From: a virus
Lineage: Duplodnaviria > Heunggongvirae > Uroviricota > Caudoviricetes
Strand: one strand, 5' to 3'
DNA length: 5,353 nucleotides
IMG/VR virus record: IMGVR_UViG_2657245634_000006
This document shows positions 1 through 5,353 of this stretch, in pieces. The notes below the pieces were generated by a model. The model was given only the letters and a program-made list of their open reading frames with translations. It was not told the DNA's origin and did no database searches. The position numbers were made by a program, and so were the translations under genes. The stretch's first letter is position 1; the number at the start of each line of letters is the position of its first letter.

Positions 1-1085
1 TTGAATCCGTTCTCGACCTGACCGGTAAACTGAATGAGGTTGAGTTCCGTGCAGAAGCCTCCACGTCCGTCATCCCAGCCACGAATAAATTCACCGCGTA
101 AATCAGGCAATTTATTTGTCGGATAAACCTTTGCCAGTTCCGGGTATTCTTCAGCAGAAAAAGCCGCACCGTTGCATTTCAGCCAGCCAGTAGGCGGTGT
201 GGCTGAAGGCCACGGAACAGGCACACCAACGGGTAATGCCGAACCTTCTCCCAAACCAAGGTATACGAGAAGACCGGCAACATCCTTTCCACTCAAATGA
301 GTCAGCGTATTGTCCAGCGGTTGTTTACCTGCCAGCGCATTGTTAATGGTGGTGCTGAATTTCGGGTCATTGTTAATGGCCGCGGCAATTTCTTTCAGTG
401 TGTCCAGTGTGGCTGGCGCACCGTTAATCAGAGCGGTAATAGCGGCCTGAACAAACTCAGTGGTCGCAATCCGCGTGGTGTTATTTCCTGCGGCAGGCGT
501 CGGCGCTTTTGGTTCTCCGGTAAATGTCGGATTATGTTTCTGTGCATACTGGGTATGAGGATCCTGTGCGGCAATGTGGTTTCTCATCTGGTCATCCACA
601 TACAGCCTTAATTCCAGGACTTCATCATCCACGTATTTACGGGTCGCCAGTACCACCGACGGGTCGATTTTCAGCGTAATAGCTTCGGTATTCGTGACAA
701 CCAGAATCATGCGGATAGTCTGGGTACGACCACTGCCTTCCTGCAACTGCGGTTTGTACGTTTCCGGGCAGTTCGCCACCGCAATGAGTACGCCTTCTTC
801 ATCATAAAGCCCAATCTCACGGATCCAGAATCCGCCCTCGTTCTCAGGGATGATTTGCTCCGCAATAATCTGGCTCTGGTTGTTCGGGTCAACACTCAGA
901 AGATTCAGCGGCGCAATGCGTTTCTGGTTAATCAGTTTTGTCTGTGCCGGGTCTGGTGTCGGCAAGACACCATTCGCATCACCAACGGCCATTTGCGTCA
1001 GATTCAGCTTACTGCCGAGCATCGTCGCGTTAGCCAGCCGTGCTGCGCCCTGATTAGTCAGAATGGCGTAGTATTTCACTGTCAT
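1..1085 (-). CDS. H: Tail fiber protein, P2 gpH-like; N-terminal 361 codons, 3' end beyond window start
   Basis: Absent from the ORF track because no stop codon falls in the window. I translated the minus strand by hand in the frame set by ATG at 1085..1083; no TAA/TAG/TGA occurs down to position 3. The ATG overlaps the stop of gene I (ATGA at 1082-1085). Translation reads MTVKYYAILTNQGAARLANATMLGSKLNLTQMAVGDANGVLPTPD..., continues through NPTFTGEPKAPTPAAGNNTTRIATTEFVQAAITALINGAPATLDTLKEIAAAINNDPKF (tail-fiber repeat-like) and ends in-window with WPSATPPTGWLKCNGAAFSAEEYPELAKVYPTNKLPDLRGEFIRGWDDGRGG (tail-collar-like). Position after gene I and the family assignment rest on remembered P2 gene order and tail fiber architecture. 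Confidence 0.8.
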   Translation of the reverse strand, partial: MTVKYYAILTNQGAARLANATMLGSKLNLTQMAVGDANGVLPTPDPAQTKLINQKRIAPLNLLSVDPNNQSQIIAEQIIPENEGGFWIREIGLYDEEGVLIAVANCPETYKPQLQEGSGRTQTIRMILVVTNTEAITLKIDPSVVLATRKYVDDEVLELRLYVDDQMRNHIAAQDPHTQYAQKHNPTFTGEPKAPTPAAGNNTTRIATTEFVQAAITALINGAPATLDTLKEIAAAINNDPKFSTTINNALAGKQPLDNTLTHLSGKDVAGLLVYLGLGEGSALPVGVPVPWPSATPPTGWLKCNGAAFSAEEYPELAKVYPTNKLPDLRGEFIRGWDDGRGGFCTELNLIQFTGQVENGF

Positions 1086-1693
1086 GCGTTTACTCTCAGG
1101 TTATCAATTAAATGAATGGCCGAGGCCGGGAAATAATCCCCTCCGACAATAATGGCCTCCGGGGTGTAGGGATAAACCGTCAGGGCGTCGCCGTGATAGC
1201 ATCCCGCACCGGCAAAAATGTTGCCGGTTGTACTTAAACTGATAGCCAGTCCCGTCAGATGGCGGCTTGCCGGTTTTGCATCAGCAACGAGGCGCTCCAG
1301 CTCCTGATACATTTCCTCGGTAATACCCTGCTCAAGCACGCCAACAACGATGCGGAACGTCCCCGGCTCCTCGTTGAGCTGCCACCACTCCCTCACCTCA
1401 ATCAGATAGCCGAGCGGCTCCACCACACGCCGGATTGCGCCTATAGTGCCCTTATGGCAGTGAATGAAATACGCATCGCGGATAACAGCGCGTTTTGTCG
1501 CTTCCGGCCACTTATCATCCCAGCGGTCAACCGAAAATGACCACGCCAGCCACGGCAGCAGATTTGCCGGGCAGGTGTCCGGGTTCCACAGCTCACGAAT
1601 ACTGACCGGCGTTTTTTCAATTTCCGCACAGGCTTTTGCGGCGGCAACTTCAAGCGGTGATGAGCCGGTCGGCAGCAGTCGCGAATCACTCAT
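1082..1693 (-). CDS. I: Baseplate/tail protein I, P2 gpI-like
   Basis: ORF-track ORF of 203 aa starting MSDSRLLPTGSSPLEVAAAKACAEIEKTPVSIRELWNPD..., which I recognise as the P2 gpI family. ATG at 1693..1691 overlaps the stop of J by 8 nt (ATGAGTGA). It sits between J and H as in P2. Confidence 0.88.
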   Translation of the reverse strand: MSDSRLLPTGSSPLEVAAAKACAEIEKTPVSIRELWNPDTCPANLLPWLAWSFSVDRWDDKWPEATKRAVIRDAYFIHCHKGTIGAIRRVVEPLGYLIEVREWWQLNEEPGTFRIVVGVLEQGITEEMYQELERLVADAKPASRHLTGLAISLSTTGNIFAGAGCYHGDALTVYPYTPEAIIVGGDYFPASAIHLIDNLRVNA

Positions 1694-2598: not shown

Positions 2599-2946
2599 TC
2601 AACTCACAGGGATGGTTAACGAAAGTGGCTGGCCGGTGTCGTTGTGCTGGCCGGTTAACGTGACCGTCATTCGCCCGTCAAAACTGCGCTCAGTGGTGAC
2701 GGATGACAGGGTGACGCGGGGTTCCCATTTCAGCACCGCCATGTAACAGGCGACCTTAATCTGCAACTCAAGCGCCGGGGTCTGCGGCTGGTCAATCATT
2801 GATGCCAGCAACGAGCCGTAATCACGACGCATCACCCGTGAGCCGACCGGCGTGCGCAGGATATCGCCGATACTCTGGCTGATATGCTCAAGGTCAGTGA
2901 CAGTCAGGCCATCACTGCGATTCATTCCGAGATAACGCGCAGTCAT
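2599..2946 (-). CDS. W: Baseplate assembly protein W, P2 gpW-like (T4 gp25 family)
   Basis: 115 aa ORF starting MTARYLGMNRSDGLTVTDLEHISQSIGDILRTPVGSRVMRRDYGSLLASMID..., recognised as the GPW/gp25 baseplate wedge family. ATG at 2946..2944 overlaps the V stop (ATGA at 2943-2946). Confidence 0.9.
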   Translation of the reverse strand: MTARYLGMNRSDGLTVTDLEHISQSIGDILRTPVGSRVMRRDYGSLLASMIDQPQTPALELQIKVACYMAVLKWEPRVTLSSVTTERSFDGRMTVTLTGQHNDTGQPLSLTIPVS

Positions 2947-3578
2947 AGAGGTCCCCCGGTTGTGCCGCCGCTGTCGCCGGGGTGTTTATGGGTATGCAGT
3001 ACCTTACCGTTTGATGAGAGTTCACCGCCGGTGTGTTCAATGTTGCCGCGCATCGTCCCGCCCTTCTGCACTTCCAGCGTGCCGGTAGTCAGTTTGTTAG
3101 TGCAGACCACTTCCGGTGTGTCCAGGGTGACACGGGTTGACGCTTTCACCGTGACCACCGGTACCGTGGCAGTAACAGAATCAGAAGCCGTCACGCTGGC
3201 CGTTTTAATTCCGCTTACCGTGAGTGCACTGGTTTCGGGTTCATACTCAATCACCGCCCCGTCAGGGAAACGGATATGCAGGGCATCCGCCGACACAGAC
3301 GGCGAGGGGTTATCGCCGGAATAAATCCCCGGCAGAACGAACGCCGTGTCGAGTTCACCGCCCACGGCCAGAATCAGCACCTGCTCCCCCACGGAAGGTG
3401 CCCACCATGTGCGCGAACGACCGGCACGATGGGTCAGCCACTGAAGCCAGTCAGTGCACATGCCGCCGGTCTGCACACGGCAGCGACCGGCGTTAAGGTC
3501 GGTTTCGACGACTAGGCCGGTACGAATCATGTTGCGCAGTGCGCGCGCGAGTTCCTGAATATTTGCGAGAGTGTTCAT
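2943..3578 (-). CDS. V: Baseplate spike / assembly protein V, P2 gpV-like
   Basis: The ORF track gives 2943..3596 with a TTG start (plus 3594-3596 is caa). I place the start at the in-frame ATG at 3578..3576, giving 211 aa beginning MNTLANIQELARALRNMIRTGLVVETDLNAGRCRVQTGG..., which matches my memory of the P2 gpV N-terminus. No obvious Shine-Dalgarno precedes either start, so the start is not fully certain. Confidence 0.87.
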   Translation of the reverse strand: MNTLANIQELARALRNMIRTGLVVETDLNAGRCRVQTGGMCTDWLQWLTHRAGRSRTWWAPSVGEQVLILAVGGELDTAFVLPGIYSGDNPSPSVSADALHIRFPDGAVIEYEPETSALTVSGIKTASVTASDSVTATVPVVTVKASTRVTLDTPEVVCTNKLTTGTLEVQKGGTMRGNIEHTGGELSSNGKVLHTHKHPGDSGGTTGGPL

Positions 3579-3661
3579 GCATGTGAGATTGCACAATATA
3601 TAAAAGTTATGCTATCTGGATTCATTTGTAGAACTACCAGACAACATTCAAGGAGAGCGTA
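3579..3661. promoter_or_regulatory. Divergent intergenic control region between V (minus) and cargo ORF (plus); putative promoters, positions uncertain
   Basis: 83-bp AT-rich spacer. Plus strand has TATATATAAAAG (3597-3608) as a possible -10 for the cargo gene, with a weak -35 (TTCATG 3574-3579 or TTGCAC 3589-3594). On the minus strand TATATT (3600..3595) is a possible -10 for V, with no good -35. The dyad TTGTAGAACTACCAGACAA (3626-3644) has TGT-N11-ACA outer halves resembling the P2 late-promoter activator element (consensus TGT-N12-ACA). All are visual matches only. Confidence 0.3.
3650..3655 (+). promoter_or_regulatory. Shine-Dalgarno sequence (AAGGAG) of the cargo ORF
   Basis: AAGGAG with a 6-nt spacer to ATG at 3662, read directly from the sequence. 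Confidence 0.6.
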
Positions 3662-4447
3662 ATGGTCAGCTATAATGTGACTAATGTGTGGGGGCTAATC
3701 GTTTTTTTCCTTTGTAGCTTTGCAGTATTAGCATTTTTTAGCTTTGGTAAAAGTAACCTTATGAGGCTTATTGCACATTATTTCAATTTTGGATATTCAG
3801 ACAAAAAATTAAAAAGACTTGACCGCGAGTGGCGCGACATTCAACTATTTAAAATAATTAACGGAATCAATGTATCAGGCATTGAAAATGTGAGAATGAT
3901 ACAGCAGGGACTGATTGATGGAAAACTAAAAACATCGTATTTTTTCCTTACTCGCATCTGGGGTGACATAACAAAACCACCACACATAATTAAAACAATA
4001 ATTGTAATTCTGGCCAGTATTTTTTACATTCTTCTCGCATGTTACATACACAACGAACAATCCGTTATAGTAAGGGATGCCATAGGCATACCATATAAAA
4101 ACATGATGTACTATGTTTATAGTGACAAAGTTCTTTTATCCTTCAAAAATAAAGCAGTTGAATTTAATAAAACTTATAGCCTTGCCGATTGCAAGAGACT
4201 GCAAAACGTATTTATAAAAGACACACTTCCTGAGATCGCCTGCAATAAGCTCTTACAGCTAAACGAGGAGGACTCCGAATGGTTAAGTCAGGAGATTAAA
4301 GATAATAACAGTCACAAAAAAGCATTATTAATACTATCCCTCGTCTATTTCACTTCAGGTCTGGTTATATTCCTGTCATATACAAAATTCTTTTACGCCA
4401 ATAAGAAGGTTTTAGAATACAAAGCATCAAATAAAAATCACTCATAA
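3662..4447 (+). CDS. Hypothetical integral membrane protein with three predicted TM helices; AT-rich accessory (moron) gene at the S/V junction
   Basis: 261 aa ORF on the strand opposite to all tail genes. AAGGAG at 3650-3655 lies 6 nt upstream of ATG 3662. TAA stop at 4445-4447 is followed by a hairpin. Hydrophobic stretches at aa 9-28 (VWGLIVFFLCSFAVLAFFSF), aa 109-129 (IIKTIIVILASIFYILLACYI) and aa 221-240 (ALLILSLVYFTSGLVIFLSY). Codon usage is strongly A/T-biased, unlike the flanking genes. I recognise no catalytic or nucleotide-binding motif. Confidence 0.8.
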   Translation: MVSYNVTNVWGLIVFFLCSFAVLAFFSFGKSNLMRLIAHYFNFGYSDKKLKRLDREWRDIQLFKIINGINVSGIENVRMIQQGLIDGKLKTSYFFLTRIWGDITKPPHIIKTIIVILASIFYILLACYIHNEQSVIVRDAIGIPYKNMMYYVYSDKVLLSFKNKAVEFNKTYSLADCKRLQNVFIKDTLPEIACNKLLQLNEEDSEWLSQEIKDNNSHKKALLILSLVYFTSGLVIFLSYTKFFYANKKVLEYKASNKNHS

Positions 4448-4452
4448 ACCTC

Positions 4453-4489
4453 TAAACATTGAGCGACCAGCATGGCCGCTCAATGTTTA
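4453..4489. terminator. Candidate bidirectional intrinsic terminator hairpin between convergent cargo ORF and gene S
   Basis: Read directly: AAACATTGAGCG (4454-4465) and CGCTCAATGTTT (4477-4488) are perfect reverse complements, with 4453 T and 4489 A extending the stem to 13 bp. The 11-nt loop ACCAGCATGGC can pair further (CCA/TGG). It is followed on plus by TTTAATT and on minus by a T-rich but interrupted tract. It lies 5 nt after the cargo TAA stop and about 30 nt after the S stop. Confidence 0.5.
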
Positions 4490-4518
4490 ATTGCGCATCA
4501 GCCTCTGACTGGATAAAA

Positions 4519-4971
4519 CTAACGCTCAAGGTGAGCCAGGATAATCTCTTCAATCATCTGCACATCCTCACAGGTAAAGCCGAGCAGAGGACGCGCCGGA
4601 TAATCAATTTTCTTACCGTCTTTCCGGGTTTCTTCCGACAGACCGAACTGATGCACGCTGGCGATTTTCGGTGACTTCCCGCCGTAAAACTCCATTGATG
4701 CCTGTTCCGGGCTGGCGCGGATATGCAAAAAACGACTGGTGATAAGTTTCGCAAACATTTTTCGCTTAACACGACCAGTCTTTTTTCTGGCGCTCTGCTG
4801 CTGGCGTGGCGCGTAGGGTGTGCCGTCCGGGGCTTTCTGAGCCATCACCCGACGTTGCTGACTCTGCCGCAGACGTTTCGCCAGTTCGGCGCTCAGTCGC
4901 CGACGCCCTGACGGTGACAGCGATTCAGTCAGTCCGGTCAGCCGGTCTTCAAAACGCTTAAACTCATTCAT
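4519..4971 (-). CDS. S: Tail completion protein S, P2 gpS-like
   Basis: 150 aa ORF starting MNEFKRFEDRLTGLTESLSPSGRRRLSAELAKRLRQSQQRRVMAQKAPDGTPYAPRQQQSARKK..., recognised as the P2 gpS family. ATG at 4971..4969 overlaps the R stop by 8 nt (ATGAATGA). TAG stop at 4521..4519. Confidence 0.9.
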   Translation of the reverse strand: MNEFKRFEDRLTGLTESLSPSGRRRLSAELAKRLRQSQQRRVMAQKAPDGTPYAPRQQQSARKKTGRVKRKMFAKLITSRFLHIRASPEQASMEFYGGKSPKIASVHQFGLSEETRKDGKKIDYPARPLLGFTCEDVQMIEEIILAHLER

Positions 4972-5353
4972 CCCACTTGCTCACCAGTTCGCCATTGATA
5001 TAAAGCTCCACCGGGCGGGTGACCGGCTCCGGCGGCGTGGGTTCCGGGATATTCTTCACATGCAGCGCACCGTCAACCTCACTGACCAGCGTGCGCTCGG
5101 TCAGCATCAGGCTGATGCTGATATCAAAGCTGCTGTCATTGTTGATGTCTGCATAAAACGTGAAGCCCTTTTTCTGGCCTTCGTCGGTGGTCATGATGTC
5201 GGGCTGATTTTCCCGCAGCCACGCCAGCACCGGCACGATGAGCAGGTCAAAATCACCGGTAAAGTCGGTCACAATGACATTGAGCGTGTAACGCTTTTCA
5301 AATGACAGCGACGCCGCCAGTGTGGAGGCAATACTCCCGTTATCCACGAATAT
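4964..5353 (-). CDS. R: Tail completion protein R, P2 gpR-like; C-terminal part, 5' end probably beyond window end
   Basis: The ORF track gives 4964..5347 from a GTG (plus 5345-5347 is cac), but the frame stays open through the last two in-window codons (5348-5353). The protein (...VDNGSIASTLAASLSFEKRYTLNVIVTDFTGDFDLLIVPVLAWLRENQPDIMTTDEGQKKGFTFYADINND...) matches my memory of P2 gpR, which I recall as longer than 127 aa. TGA stop at 4966..4964. Confidence 0.8.
   Translation of the reverse strand: MFVDNGSIASTLAASLSFEKRYTLNVIVTDFTGDFDLLIVPVLAWLRENQPDIMTTDEGQKKGFTFYADINNDSSFDISISLMLTERTLVSEVDGALHVKNIPEPTPPEPVTRPVELYINGELVSKWDE

What the first reader, a model, noticed from the sequence alone, without database searches (positions are those of the whole stretch)
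3686..4381. Predicted topology of the cargo protein: N-terminal signal-anchor, two soluble domains of about 80-90 aa separated by TM2, short Lys-rich C-terminal tail
The hydrophobic segments at aa 9-28, 109-129 and 221-240 (nt 3686-3745, 3986-4048, 4322-4381) are each about 20 residues of uninterrupted I/L/V/F/A, flanked by Lys/Arg. With an odd number of TM helices the two intervening domains (aa 29-108 and 130-220) would sit on opposite faces of the inner membrane. One could be a periplasmic sensor of incoming phage and the other a cytoplasmic effector or interaction domain. The C-terminal tail (TKFFYANKKVLEYKASNKNHS) is basic. This is hydropathy read by eye, not a computed prediction.
Basis: inference. 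Interest (0 to 1): 0.5.

Follow-up and report, generated by a model that had tools for sequence, protein, structure and literature searches.

The report
Phage P2 orf30 membrane protein
The ORF is the long-catalogued but never-explained gene orf30 of bacteriophage P2, a real three-helix inner-membrane protein with one conserved domain facing the cytoplasm and one disulfide-type domain facing the periplasm, most likely an accessory gene that acts at the cell envelope, though its function is still untested.

Summary
ORF 3662-4447(+) encodes 261 aa with three hydrophobic segments exactly where stated. Only 6 of 20,000 composition-preserving shuffles do as well. It is bacteriophage P2 orf30 (99.6% aa identity; "nonessential", function unknown; PHROG 2407). 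It lies in a 938-bp, 34%-GC cassette (3579-4516) between tail genes V and S, and some relatives have that slot empty.

Across 38 homologs, charge bias and an always-present Cys pair in loop 2 indicate this topology: N-terminus out, loop 1 (aa 29-108, most conserved, helical) cytoplasmic, loop 2 (aa 130-220, beta-meander plus helices) periplasmic, basic tail cytoplasmic. TM1 is therefore a reverse (N-out) anchor, not a classical signal-anchor.

The family is always a solo gene. Relatives down to about 20% identity keep the same V|S slot in P2-like prophages. Others survive in a decayed prophage, an ICE beside Hachiman, or alone in chromosomes.

Best guess (unproven): an envelope-level exclusion or defence protein analogous to P22 SieA, HK97 gp15 and T4 Imm. 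This is a known gene with a new topology model and a testable hypothesis. Interest is moderate.

The parts
3579..4516 (.). Swapped accessory cassette (938 bp, about 34% GC) filling the whole V-S intergenic space
   Evidence: In E. coli P2-type prophages with an empty slot (L011, L012) homology to the window ends at 3578 (V start codon) and resumes at 4517; a 64-bp spacer replaces the cassette. GC profile.
2943..3578 (-). Gene V (baseplate spike), left flank
   Evidence: Pfam Phage_base_V, Phage_spike and Apex; coordinates mapped from the P2 annotation.
3620..3647 (-). Ogr/late-activator binding site of the pV promoter (as annotated in P2), inside the cassette and only about 15 bp from the orf30 start codon
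   Evidence: P2 record AF063097 feature 10239-10266 mapped to window coordinates; TGT-N11-ACA motif at 3627-3643.
3650..3655 (+). Shine-Dalgarno AAGGAG, 6 nt before the ATG
   Evidence: Read directly from the sequence.
3662..4447 (+). orf30 CDS, 261 aa plus stop
   Evidence: 99.6% aa identity to P2 Orf30 AAD03281; PHROG 2407 at E = 5.5e-149 over the full length; intact in all 8 alleles compared, dN/dS 0.45.
3662..3685 (+). aa 1-8, short uncharged N-terminus, predicted periplasmic
   Evidence: Net charge 0 here and -0.7 on average across the family.
3686..3745 (+). TM1 (aa 9-28), predicted N-out to C-in
   Evidence: KD 2.41, WW -15.1; AF2 helix 8-28.
3746..3985 (+). Loop 1 (aa 29-108), helical, most conserved segment, predicted cytoplasmic
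   Evidence: Net +7 here, +4.6 family mean; 40% mean pairwise identity against 25% for loop 2; conserved G29, Q61, G68, N70, D76, G87, F94, G101; AF2 helices 30-40, 48-67, 74-86, 91-94.
3986..4048 (+). TM2 (aa 109-129)
   Evidence: KD 2.59, WW -10.0; AF2 helix 109-134.
4049..4321 (+). Loop 2 (aa 130-220), beta-meander plus helices, predicted periplasmic
   Evidence: Net charge 0 (family mean -0.2); two or more Cys in 38 of 38 homologs; AF2 strands 141-173 and helices 174-179, 189-198; domain-only model pLDDT 78.
4190..4192 (+). Codon of Cys177, first half of the conserved Cys pair
   Evidence: Conserved in 35 of 38 aligned columns; every sequence has at least 2 Cys in loop 2.
4241..4243 (+). 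Codon of Cys194, second half of the conserved Cys pair
   Evidence: Invariant in 38 of 38.
4322..4381 (+). TM3 (aa 221-240), predicted out to in
   Evidence: KD 2.25, WW -12.7; part of the long AF2 helix 202-260.
4382..4444 (+). Basic C-terminal tail (aa 241-261), predicted cytoplasmic
   Evidence: Net +4 here, +2.3 family mean; K254 conserved.
4453..4489 (.). Stem-loop between the convergent genes orf30 and S; candidate bidirectional terminator
   Evidence: dG -21.3 (+ strand) and -26.5 (- strand) kcal/mol, z = -5.6 and -5.2; annotated in P2 as a putative rho-independent terminator of the O operon.
4519..4971 (-). Gene S (tail completion), right flank
   Evidence: Pfam Phage_tail_S at E = 1.3e-43.

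Best explanation
The ORF is bacteriophage P2 orf30. It is a genuine single-gene accessory cassette ('moron') lodged between tail genes V and S and read in the opposite direction to them.

It encodes a polytopic inner-membrane protein with three TM helices. The short N-terminus and loop 2 (aa 130-220, an alpha/beta domain probably stapled by a C177-C194 disulfide) face the periplasm. Loop 1 (aa 29-108, the conserved helical domain) and the basic tail face the cytoplasm.

Most likely mechanism (inferred, not shown): it sits constitutively in the lysogen's inner membrane and acts at the envelope against incoming phages. The periplasmic domain would meet a component that arrives with the tail tip (tape-measure, ejection or spike proteins). 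Together with the TM bundle and the conserved cytoplasmic domain, it would prevent formation or use of the DNA-entry channel. This is superinfection exclusion of the P22 SieA / HK97 gp15 / T4 Imm kind.

Shown: gene identity, reality of the gene, cassette boundaries, three hydrophobic helices, family-wide charge and cysteine pattern, solo-gene status, linkage to P2-type prophages. Inferred: orientation in the membrane (about 0.8), the disulfide (about 0.6), expression from the prophage (unknown), anti-phage exclusion function (about 0.35).
For: - Identity: 99.5% nt and 99.6% aa to P2 orf30.
- Real gene: intact in 8 diverged alleles, dN/dS 0.45, with loops at 0.29-0.38. Found at 482 places in 464 of 5,426 complete E. 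coli genomes. 36 clusters at 50% identity in 1.84 billion proteins, all about 250-270 aa with the same plan.
- Topology: hydropathy and shuffle test. Mean net charge is N-terminus -0.7, loop 1 +4.6, loop 2 -0.2, tail +2.3. K/R flanking the TMs is biased to loop 1 plus tail in 23 of 24 sequences. There are at least 2 Cys in loop 2 in 38 of 38 sequences, against 0.3 on average in loop 1. AF2 model pLDDT 81.5.
- Moron features: 34% GC against 58%; empty-slot relatives and exact cassette edges; strong SD; stem-loop after the stop codon. The orf30 allele is decoupled from its flanks: dS to P2 is 0.019, against 0.13-0.14 for V and S.
- Solo gene, no conserved partner, in nine contexts.
- Retained where the prophage has decayed (L021) and present beside Hachiman on an ICE (L004), which suggests a benefit to the host.
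- Analogues: P22 SieA is a 162-164-aa inner-membrane protein with three predicted TM that blocks DNA injection (PMC10883804). HK97 gp15 is an inner-membrane exclusion protein carried as a moron inside a tail operon (PMC3594210). T4 Imm binds the tape-measure protein (bioRxiv 10.64898/2026.03.06.709160).
Against: - No experimental phenotype for orf30 exists in the literature I could search. P2's known exclusion genes are old, tin and fun/Z. The hotspot surveys read here do not treat the S-V slot.
- No match to any PADLOC defence model and no sequence relation to SieA, Imm or gp15.
- No consensus sigma-70 promoter upstream of orf30. The 83-bp upstream spacer is largely occupied by the pV late promoter, so expression in the lysogen is unproven.
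- Loop 2 shows purifying rather than diversifying selection among close alleles, which is not what a simple arms-race sensor predicts.
- From my own knowledge (not checked here): P2 lysogens are reported to accept DNA from superinfecting P2, so any exclusion would be aimed at other phages.
- Topology was not run through a dedicated predictor, and the Cys-Cys distance in the model could not be measured.
Confidence: 0.4

Rival explanations
1. Abortive-infection membrane effector. Orf30 is a latent pore-former or membrane-disrupting toxin (SLATT-like in logic) that is triggered by infection and kills or arrests the cell rather than blocking entry.
For: One homolog (P0010) carries the automated UniRef name 'SMODS and SLOG-associating 2TM effector domain-containing protein'. 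It is a multi-TM single-gene cassette on mobile elements, and one copy lies about 2 kb from a Hachiman system on an ICE. The uniformly low GC (30-36%) in every host fits a toxic gene kept silent by H-NS. The conserved cytoplasmic loop 1 could be the trigger-binding module.
Against: No SLATT family of Pfam or NCBIfam is hit by any of 31 members, nor by 10 more distant ones in Pfam, even at E <= 10. The protein has three TM helices, not two. No SMODS, SLOG, reverse-transcriptase or other signal-generating partner is present in any of nine loci. It is widespread as a stable chromosomal solo gene in Enterobacter (341 index blocks) with no obvious antitoxin.
Confidence: 0.2
2. Lysogenic-conversion factor unrelated to phage defence, for example immunity to a pore-forming bacteriocin or toxin, or an envelope or stress-fitness function for the host.
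For: The gene is retained after the surrounding prophage decayed (L021) and occurs as a chromosomal solo gene in Enterobacter and another enterobacterium. That argues for host benefit but does not specify phage defence. From my own knowledge: pore-forming colicin immunity proteins are small inner-membrane proteins with 3-4 TM helices. The T4 Imm preprint explicitly draws the parallel between exclusion proteins and such immunity proteins.
Against: There is no toxin or bacteriocin gene next to it in any locus examined. The two soluble domains of 80-90 aa are atypical for colicin immunity proteins. There is no family match of any kind. The tight, ancient link to one slot of P2-type phages suggests a phage-related role.
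Confidence: 0.2
3. Accessory function in the P2-type phage's own cycle, for example protecting infected or induced cells from re-adsorbing progeny, or modulating injection or lysis. It would be non-essential in the laboratory.
For: Homologs as low as 20-24% identity still occupy exactly the V|S slot in the same divergent orientation in Serratia, Kosakonia, Enterobacter-type and E. coli P2-like prophages. That is unusual for random hotspot cargo. The start codon lies about 15 bp from the Ogr-binding site of the late promoter pV, so its expression could be coupled to late gene activation.
Against: It is annotated nonessential in P2. It is absent from roughly three quarters of closely related E. 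coli P2-type prophages (482 against 1,803 places), some of which have a completely empty slot. It is also found away from phages and is read on the opposite strand to all late operons.
Confidence: 0.12
4. Spurious ORF: an open frame in AT-rich spacer DNA whose Ile/Leu/Phe-rich translation merely looks like TM helices.
For: AT-rich DNA is enriched in hydrophobic and Lys/Asn codons. No promoter was detected.
Against: Only this frame is open (the other five have 13-28 stops). There is a strong SD. The full-length family reaches down to about 20% identity with conserved motifs and a conserved Cys pair. dN/dS is 0.45 with no frame disruption in 8 alleles. The shuffle test gives p of about 3e-4. The AF2 model is confident.
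Confidence: 0.01

Closest known systems
Bacteriophage P2 Orf30 (AAD03281; 'putative 30.4 kDa protein'; PHROG 2407)
   Same: It is this gene: 99.6% aa identity, same position between V and S, same orientation, same flanking terminator and pV activator site.
   Different: One amino-acid difference. The window's V and S genes are a diverged allele (dS 0.13-0.14 to P2). The window is 100% identical to a prophage of E. coli O111:H21 strain 15A. The function of Orf30 is unknown ('nonessential').
P22 SieA (prophage-expressed inner-membrane superinfection-exclusion protein)
   Same: It is prophage-encoded, single-gene, an inner-membrane protein with three predicted TM helices and no signal peptide, and its family members are very divergent (<30% identity) with a conserved motif on the cytoplasmic side (PMC10883804). 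Orf30 shares this architecture logic and this conservation pattern.
   Different: There is no detectable sequence or profile similarity. SieA is 162-164 aa and lacks the two soluble domains of 80-90 aa. SieA's activity (block of P22-type DNA injection through the ejection proteins) is demonstrated, whereas Orf30's is not.
HK97 gp15 and T4 Imm (membrane exclusion proteins that act on the tape-measure protein)
   Same: gp15 is the archetypal moron inside a tail operon, with deviant GC and its own transcription signals, and it inserts in the inner membrane and blocks genome entry (PMC3594210). Imm binds the tape-measure protein of a contractile-tailed phage. Orf30 is likewise a deviant-GC cassette among tail genes that encodes an inner-membrane protein.
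   Different: gp15 and Imm are small (Imm 83 aa) and unrelated in sequence. Orf30 is three times larger and has a folded periplasmic domain. No interaction or phenotype is known for Orf30.
SLATT (SMODS and SLOG-associating 2TM effector) domains
   Same: They are multi-TM proteins on defence-linked mobile elements, and one homolog carries this name in UniRef.
   Different: No SLATT profile hit for any member. Orf30 has three TM helices rather than two. It has no nucleotide-signal-generating or RT partner gene.
Pfam DUF6216 (PF19723)
   Same: This is the only recurrent weak profile signal: 6 of 31 members (best E = 9.6e-4) and three more distant relatives. In P0069 the match is nearly end to end (residues 17-226 against profile 21-242 of 270). 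Protein length is similar.
   Different: All scores shown (11-15 bits) are below the gathering cut-off (27.3 bits). Orf30 itself does not hit. DUF6216 has no known function. I could not retrieve bona fide members for a profile-profile test.
SNIPE / PD-lambda-1 (membrane-anchored nuclease acting during genome injection)
   Same: The concept is the same: a defence protein stationed in the inner membrane at the site of phage DNA entry, with an N-out topology shown by PhoA-LacZ-alpha fusions (PMC13190303).
   Different: SNIPE has one TM helix plus DUF4041 and a GIY-YIG nuclease. Orf30 has no recognisable enzymatic domain.

Membership tests
P2 Orf30 family (PHROG 2407) | Full-length match to the family profile | tested here: met
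   phrog_2407 at E = 5.5e-149, residues 1-261 against profile 1-261; all 30 diverse relatives also hit it.
P2 Orf30 family (PHROG 2407) | Near-identity to the P2 reference protein and the same locus (between V and S, divergent from V) | tested here: met
   99.6% aa identity to AF063097 orf30, with the same neighbours and signals.
Three-TM inner-membrane protein, N-out/C-in | Three hydrophobic helices long enough to span the membrane | tested here: met
   KD 2.25-2.59, WW -10 to -15 kcal/mol; shuffle test 6 of 20,000; AF2 helices.
Three-TM inner-membrane protein, N-out/C-in | Positive-inside charge distribution and periplasm-specific features | tested here: met
   Family mean net charges are -0.7, +4.6, -0.2 and +2.3. 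K/R bias is seen in 23 of 24 sequences. A Cys pair is present in loop 2 only, in 38 of 38. This is a prediction, not an experiment.
Three-TM inner-membrane protein, N-out/C-in | Experimental localisation and topology (fractionation, PhoA/LacZ or GFP fusions) | not testable with these tools
   Wet-lab only. DeepTMHMM and TOPCONS were also unavailable.
Sec-type cleavable signal peptide / classical N-in signal-anchor | Positively charged n-region before the hydrophobic core | tested here: not met
   The N-terminus MVSYNVTN has no K/R, and the family mean net charge is -0.7. The K/R residues follow TM1 instead.
SLATT (2TM effector) domains | Match to a SLATT profile (Pfam SLATT_1-6, NCBIfam SLATT models) | tested here: not met
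   No SLATT hit for 31 members in Pfam and NCBIfam at E <= 10, nor for 10 distant relatives in Pfam. Profile-profile (HHpred) was not possible.
SLATT (2TM effector) domains | Two-TM core | tested here: not met
   Three TM helices at conserved positions.
SLATT (2TM effector) domains | Genomic association with SMODS, SLOG, RT or another signal-generating partner | tested here: not met
   It is a solo gene in nine loci, and none has such a neighbour.
Pfam DUF6216 (PF19723) | Score above the gathering cut-off (27.3 bits) | tested here: inconclusive
   Orf30 does not hit. 6 of 31 members hit with best E = 9.6e-4, and distant relatives score 11-15 bits, one nearly full length. A remote relationship is possible but unproven.
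Known anti-phage defence systems (PADLOC-DB v2) | Match to any defence-protein model | tested here: not met
   No hits for Orf30 at E <= 10. Only three isolated chance-level hits among 30 relatives.
Prophage moron-encoded inner-membrane superinfection-exclusion proteins (functional class: SieA, gp15, Imm) | Horizontally acquired cassette with deviant GC and its own signals inside a prophage | tested here: met
   34% against 58% GC; exact cassette edges; empty-slot relatives; SD and stem-loop terminator. A promoter was not identified.
Prophage moron-encoded inner-membrane superinfection-exclusion proteins (functional class: SieA, gp15, Imm) | Expressed from the repressed prophage | not testable with these tools
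   No transcript data. The consensus promoter scan upstream is negative.
Prophage moron-encoded inner-membrane superinfection-exclusion proteins (functional class: SieA, gp15, Imm) | Blocks DNA entry of superinfecting phage without blocking adsorption | not testable with these tools
   Requires plaque, adsorption and injection assays.

The most novel reading that the evidence does not exclude
Orf30 founds a new single-gene, envelope-level anti-phage family and makes the S|V slot a third defence locus of P2-type phages. A disulfide-bonded periplasmic domain would recognise an incoming tail-tip or tape-measure component. A highly conserved 80-aa cytoplasmic helical domain (Q61, N70, D76, G87 motif) of a fold with no known counterpart would execute the block or signal. 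The gene would be kept AT-rich (30-36% GC in every host) for H-NS silencing.
Probability: 0.3. Interest if true: 0.6.

Novelty: new member of a known kind. Interest (0 to 1): 0.4.

Why it matters
P2 is a founding model temperate phage, and orf30 is one of its very few genes still without a function, more than 25 years after the genome was annotated.

This work gives a concrete, testable topology: which domain faces which compartment, and a probable disulfide. It also shows that the gene belongs to a sparse but deep family that has stayed in one slot of P2-type phages across Enterobacterales and is kept when prophages decay. That points to a host-beneficial function at the envelope.

The current P2 defence-hotspot surveys cover the old/tin and Z/fun loci but not this slot. 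About 9% of complete E. coli genomes carry the gene. If it proves to be an exclusion or defence protein, it would add a new fold to the small set of membrane proteins known to act at the phage DNA-entry step. If not, it is simply a better-described orphan membrane protein.

Tried and rejected
1. Pfam, NCBIfam and PADLOC scans of Orf30 and of 31, 30 and 10 relatives gave no significant family, only sub-threshold DUF6216 hits.
2. The SLATT lead from a UniRef name could not be reproduced and was rejected as a membership claim.
3. The PDB sequence search with one sequence and with a profile gave only chance-level hits (GST, alpha-lactalbumin; E >= 0.047).
5. The third large homology search, with a broad alignment meant to reach DUF6216 members, hit the candidate cap and found none.
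6. Literature: 'orf30' with P2 terms gave only 'unknown/nonessential/variable locus'. The hotspot papers do not cover the slot. The Christie & Calendar P2 review and the H-NS preprint that mentions DUF6216 could not be opened.
7. The promoter scan found no consensus sigma-70 site upstream of orf30.
8. dN/dS per domain found no positive selection in loop 2, so the 'arms-race sensor' signature is absent.
9. The Cys177-Cys194 distance could not be measured because model coordinates are not exposed.
Full report
**What the window is.**

The 5,353-bp window is a P2-type tail and baseplate module on the minus strand. It carries I (1082-1693 as listed), J (1686-2594), W (2599-2946), V (2943-3578), S (4519-4971) and R (4964-5347), each with the expected Pfam family. 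Between V and S lies a stretch of about 34% GC, against about 58% on both sides. It carries one long ORF on the plus strand, 3662-4447, of 261 aa.

**Check of the observation.**

The three hydrophobic segments are where the finder said, and the aa-to-nt mapping is exact.
- Kyte-Doolittle 19-residue maxima are 2.41, 2.59 and 2.25.
- Wimley-White octanol sums are -15.1, -10.0 and -12.7 kcal/mol. No other part of the protein comes close.
- AT-rich DNA inflates Ile/Leu/Phe codons, so I shuffled the protein 20,000 times. Three separate windows with KD >= 2.0 appeared 6 times.
- The other five reading frames carry 13-28 stops.
- The wording 'uninterrupted I/L/V/F/A, flanked by Lys/Arg' is loose. The segments are 65-75% I/L/V/F/A. 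TM2 as delimited includes K111. TM1 has no basic residue before it.
- The tail has net charge +4.

**Identity.**

The cassette is 99.5% identical in DNA, and the protein 99.6% identical, to orf30 of bacteriophage P2 (AF063097, AAD03281, annotated 'nonessential'). It matches PHROG 2407 ('unknown function') end to end at E = 5.5e-149.

The P2 record also annotates two features here, which I mapped to window coordinates:
- the Ogr activator site of the late promoter pV, at window 3620-3647;
- a putative terminator of the O operon, at window 4453-4489.

That hairpin folds at -21.3 kcal/mol on the plus strand and -26.5 kcal/mol on the minus strand, with z about -5. A strong Shine-Dalgarno (AAGGAG, 3650-3655) precedes the ATG.

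The literature I could read lists Orf30 as 'unknown'. It names the orf30 locus as one of three places where P2-like phages carry foreign genes (PMC3091744). Phage R18C has a different ORF there (PMC6823313). The recent P2 defence-hotspot studies deal with old/tin and Z/fun (plus other loci) and do not mention orf30 or the S-V slot.

**Cassette and population data.**

Some E. coli P2-type prophages have an empty slot with a 64-bp spacer (L011, L012). Homology to the window stops at the V start codon (3578) and resumes at 4517, so the mobile unit is 3579-4516.

Among 5,426 complete E. coli genomes, orf30 occurs at 482 chromosomal places in 464 genomes, and gene S at 1,803 places. Roughly a quarter of close P2-type prophages therefore carry it. 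The window is 100% identical to E. coli O111:H21 strain 15A at both loci.

Eight alleles (80-99% aa identity) all keep the 261-codon frame.
- Whole-gene dN/dS is 0.45, against 0.14 for V and 0.09 for S.
- By segment: loop 1 is 0.38, loop 2 is 0.29, and N-terminus plus TM1 is 1.26.
- The gene is under purifying selection, looser than that on structural genes, and loop 2 shows no excess of replacements.

The window's orf30 is almost identical to P2's (dS 0.019), while its V and S genes are not (dS 0.14 and 0.13). The cassette therefore recombines independently of its flanks.

**The family.**

A first search found only 5 clusters. A profile search found 42 proteins. Exhaustive HMMER over 1.84 billion representatives found 36 clusters, 17 of them at E <= 1e-10. 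Nearly all are 250-270 aa with the same plan.

In a 38-sequence alignment, loop 1 is the most conserved part: 40% mean pairwise identity, against 25% for loop 2 and about 20% for the TM segments. The conserved positions are G29, Q61, G68, N70, D76, G87, F94, G101, C177, C194, L208, I212 and K254.

**Topology.**

Three lines of evidence give the orientation.
- **Charge.** Family mean net charges are N-terminus -0.7, loop 1 +4.6, loop 2 -0.2 and tail +2.3.
- **Positive-inside bias.** K/R within 15 residues of the TM helices favour loop 1 plus tail over N-terminus plus loop 2 in 23 of 24 sequences with three clear TM segments.
- **Cysteines.** Every one of the 38 sequences has at least two cysteines in loop 2 (C194 invariant, C177 in 35 of 38 columns). 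Loop 1 averages 0.3.

A conserved Cys pair confined to one loop is what a DsbA-formed periplasmic disulfide would look like.

Together these give N-out, loop 1 cytoplasmic, loop 2 periplasmic, C-in. TM1 is thus a reverse (N-out) anchor, not a signal peptide or a classical signal-anchor. This is prediction: no dedicated topology predictor was available, and I could not measure the Cys-Cys distance in the model.

**Structure.**

AlphaFold2 with 31 sequences gave pLDDT 81.5 and pTM 0.65. Its elements are:
- helix 8-28;
- a helical loop 1 (30-40, 48-67, 74-86, 91-94);
- helix 109-134;
- four strands (141-173) and two helices (174-179, 189-198) in loop 2;
- one long helix, 202-260, that contains TM3.

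A loop-2-only model (pLDDT 78) shows a beta-meander followed by three helices.

Fold searches found nothing specific.
- BFVD gave nothing below E = 0.22.
- PDB sequence and profile searches gave chance-level hits.
- The AFDB libraries were unavailable.

So neither soluble domain matches a well-characterised fold.

**Family labels tested.**

One homolog (P0010) carries the UniRef name 'SMODS and SLOG-associating 2TM effector domain-containing protein'; all NCBI names are 'hypothetical protein'. I could not reproduce the label. None of 31 members hits a SLATT model in Pfam or NCBIfam at E <= 10, nor do 10 more distant relatives in Pfam. The protein has three TM helices, and no locus has a signal-generating partner. 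PADLOC gives nothing.

The only recurrent weak signal is Pfam DUF6216: 6 of 31 members (best E = 9.6e-4), plus distant relatives, one aligned nearly end to end. It is below threshold, and a search meant to fetch true members failed. DUF6216 is named once in a 2026 preprint on H-NS-silenced antiviral loci that also mentions P2-like prophages, but the text could not be opened.

**Genomic contexts.**

The gene is always alone.
- **Same V|S slot and orientation.** Relatives of 32-36% identity sit there in P2-like prophages of Kosakonia and in two metagenomic contigs (L005-L007). So does a 23%-identity relative in Serratia (L020).
- **Near or in decayed prophages.** A 21%-identity relative lies about 1.9 kb outside the integrase end of a P2/186-type prophage (L019). 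Another survives inside a decayed remnant beside a gpR fragment, at what appears to be the same chromosomal site (ecotin, PAP2, DeoC neighbours) (L021).
- **Away from phages.** Others are chromosomal solo genes: Enterobacter (listed in 341 index blocks) and a second enterobacterial site. One sits on an ICE about 2 kb from HamA/HamB (Hachiman) in Dickeya.

Every copy is 30-36% GC in hosts of 52-62%.

**Interpretation.**

Shown:
- a real, mobile, single-gene accessory cassette;
- it encodes a three-helix membrane protein with a conserved domain on the basic side and a Cys-pair domain on the other;
- it has been linked to one slot of P2-type phages for a long time and is retained when the prophage decays.

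Inferred:
- It probably benefits the lysogen and acts at the inner membrane.
- The best-supported concrete mechanism is exclusion at the DNA-entry step, by analogy with three proteins. [quoted passage not shown] HK97 gp15 is a moron inside a tail operon (PMC3594210). T4 Imm binds the tape-measure protein. SNIPE shows that other defences also station themselves at the entry site (PMC13190303).
- I put the topology at about 0.8 and the exclusion function at about 0.35.

Against the exclusion idea:
- no phenotype is on record;
- there is no defence-family match;
- no promoter was found;
- loop 2 shows no diversifying selection.

The rivals are an Abi-type membrane effector, a non-phage lysogenic-conversion role such as toxin immunity, and an accessory role in the phage's own cycle. 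They are scored in the rival list. The spurious-ORF reading is refuted.

**Novelty and score.**

The gene has been catalogued since the P2 genome annotation, so the object is not new. What is added:
- a family-wide topology with assigned sides and a probable disulfide;
- the exact cassette edges;
- the depth and slot-fidelity of the family;
- the negative results against SLATT and all known folds.

If it is an exclusion or defence protein, it is a new family within a known kind. Interest is moderate (0.4). A specialist would not be astonished, but an old open question about a model phage becomes directly testable with a handful of standard experiments.

Noticed in passing
window 2943-3578, 3662-4447, 4519-4971: Mosaicism. 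The window's orf30 is almost identical to P2's (dN 0.002, dS 0.019), but the adjacent V and S genes are clearly different alleles (dS 0.14 and 0.13). The cassette has therefore been exchanged independently of its flanks.
   Followed up: partly
L011 2935-2998 and L012 (E. coli Combat13F7, T16R): Closely related P2-type prophages have an empty S-V slot. A 64-bp spacer with its own GC-rich hairpin (GCCGCCGG...CCGGCGGC) replaces the 938-bp cassette. The pV promoter region and the terminator are therefore part of what is swapped.
   Followed up: partly
L002, L004-L007, L009, L019-L021 (orf30 homologs): Every family member, down to about 20% identity and in hosts of 52-62% GC, is itself 30-36% GC. 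Such uniform AT-richness over deep divergence suggests selection for it, for example H-NS silencing, rather than recent import. This was not tested.
   Followed up: no
L004 8001-8780 and 10778-14205 (Dickeya zeae CP040815): An orf30 homolog (37% identity) lies on an ICE (T4SS genes) about 2 kb from a Hachiman system (HamA plus helicase), a defence-island-like setting.
   Followed up: no
L019 9001-9768 and L021 9001-9750: Two relatives of about 20% identity lie next to the same chromosomal neighbours (ecotin, two PAP2 genes, DeoC, DeoR). One is just outside the integrase end of a P2/186-type prophage. The other is in a decayed remnant beside a gpR fragment. The membrane-protein gene seems to outlive the prophage.
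   Followed up: partly
L006 8875-9377; L020 10085-10879: In some P2-like prophages the slot holds extra cargo between the orf30 homolog and S. L006 has two small, very hydrophobic ORFs (107 and 53 aa). L020 has a 264-aa ORF with an N-terminal hydrophobic segment and a charged, probably coiled-coil remainder. These were not analysed.
   Followed up: no
window 3579-3661: Only 83 bp separate the divergent start codons of V and orf30. The annotated Ogr-binding site of pV (3620-3647) ends about 15 bp from the orf30 ATG, and no consensus sigma-70 promoter for orf30 was found. How orf30 is transcribed, and whether Ogr binding interferes with it, is unexplained.
   Followed up: partly
P0010 (Enterobacter homolog), database annotation: The UniRef name 'SMODS and SLOG-associating 2TM effector domain-containing protein' is not reproducible with current Pfam or NCBIfam models and may be an annotation artefact that could propagate.
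   Followed up: yes
preprint 10.64898/2026.09.05.749240 (not readable here): A 2026 preprint on H-NS silencing of antiviral loci mentions DUF6216 once and P2-like prophages four times. DUF6216 is the only Pfam family with a recurrent weak signal for this family, so the preprint may hold relevant functional data.
   Followed up: partly
window 1-1256: Megablast homology to the empty-slot prophage L011 starts only at window 1257, inside gene I. The 3' part of I and the 5' part of the tail-fibre gene H at the window's left end are therefore a different allele, as expected for host-range modules.
   Followed up: no
window 1082-1693 and 2943-3596: The mechanical ORF list extends I (203 aa) and V (217 aa) to upstream start codons. 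The P2 annotation uses later starts (176 and 211 aa), so the real V start is at 3578.
   Followed up: yes
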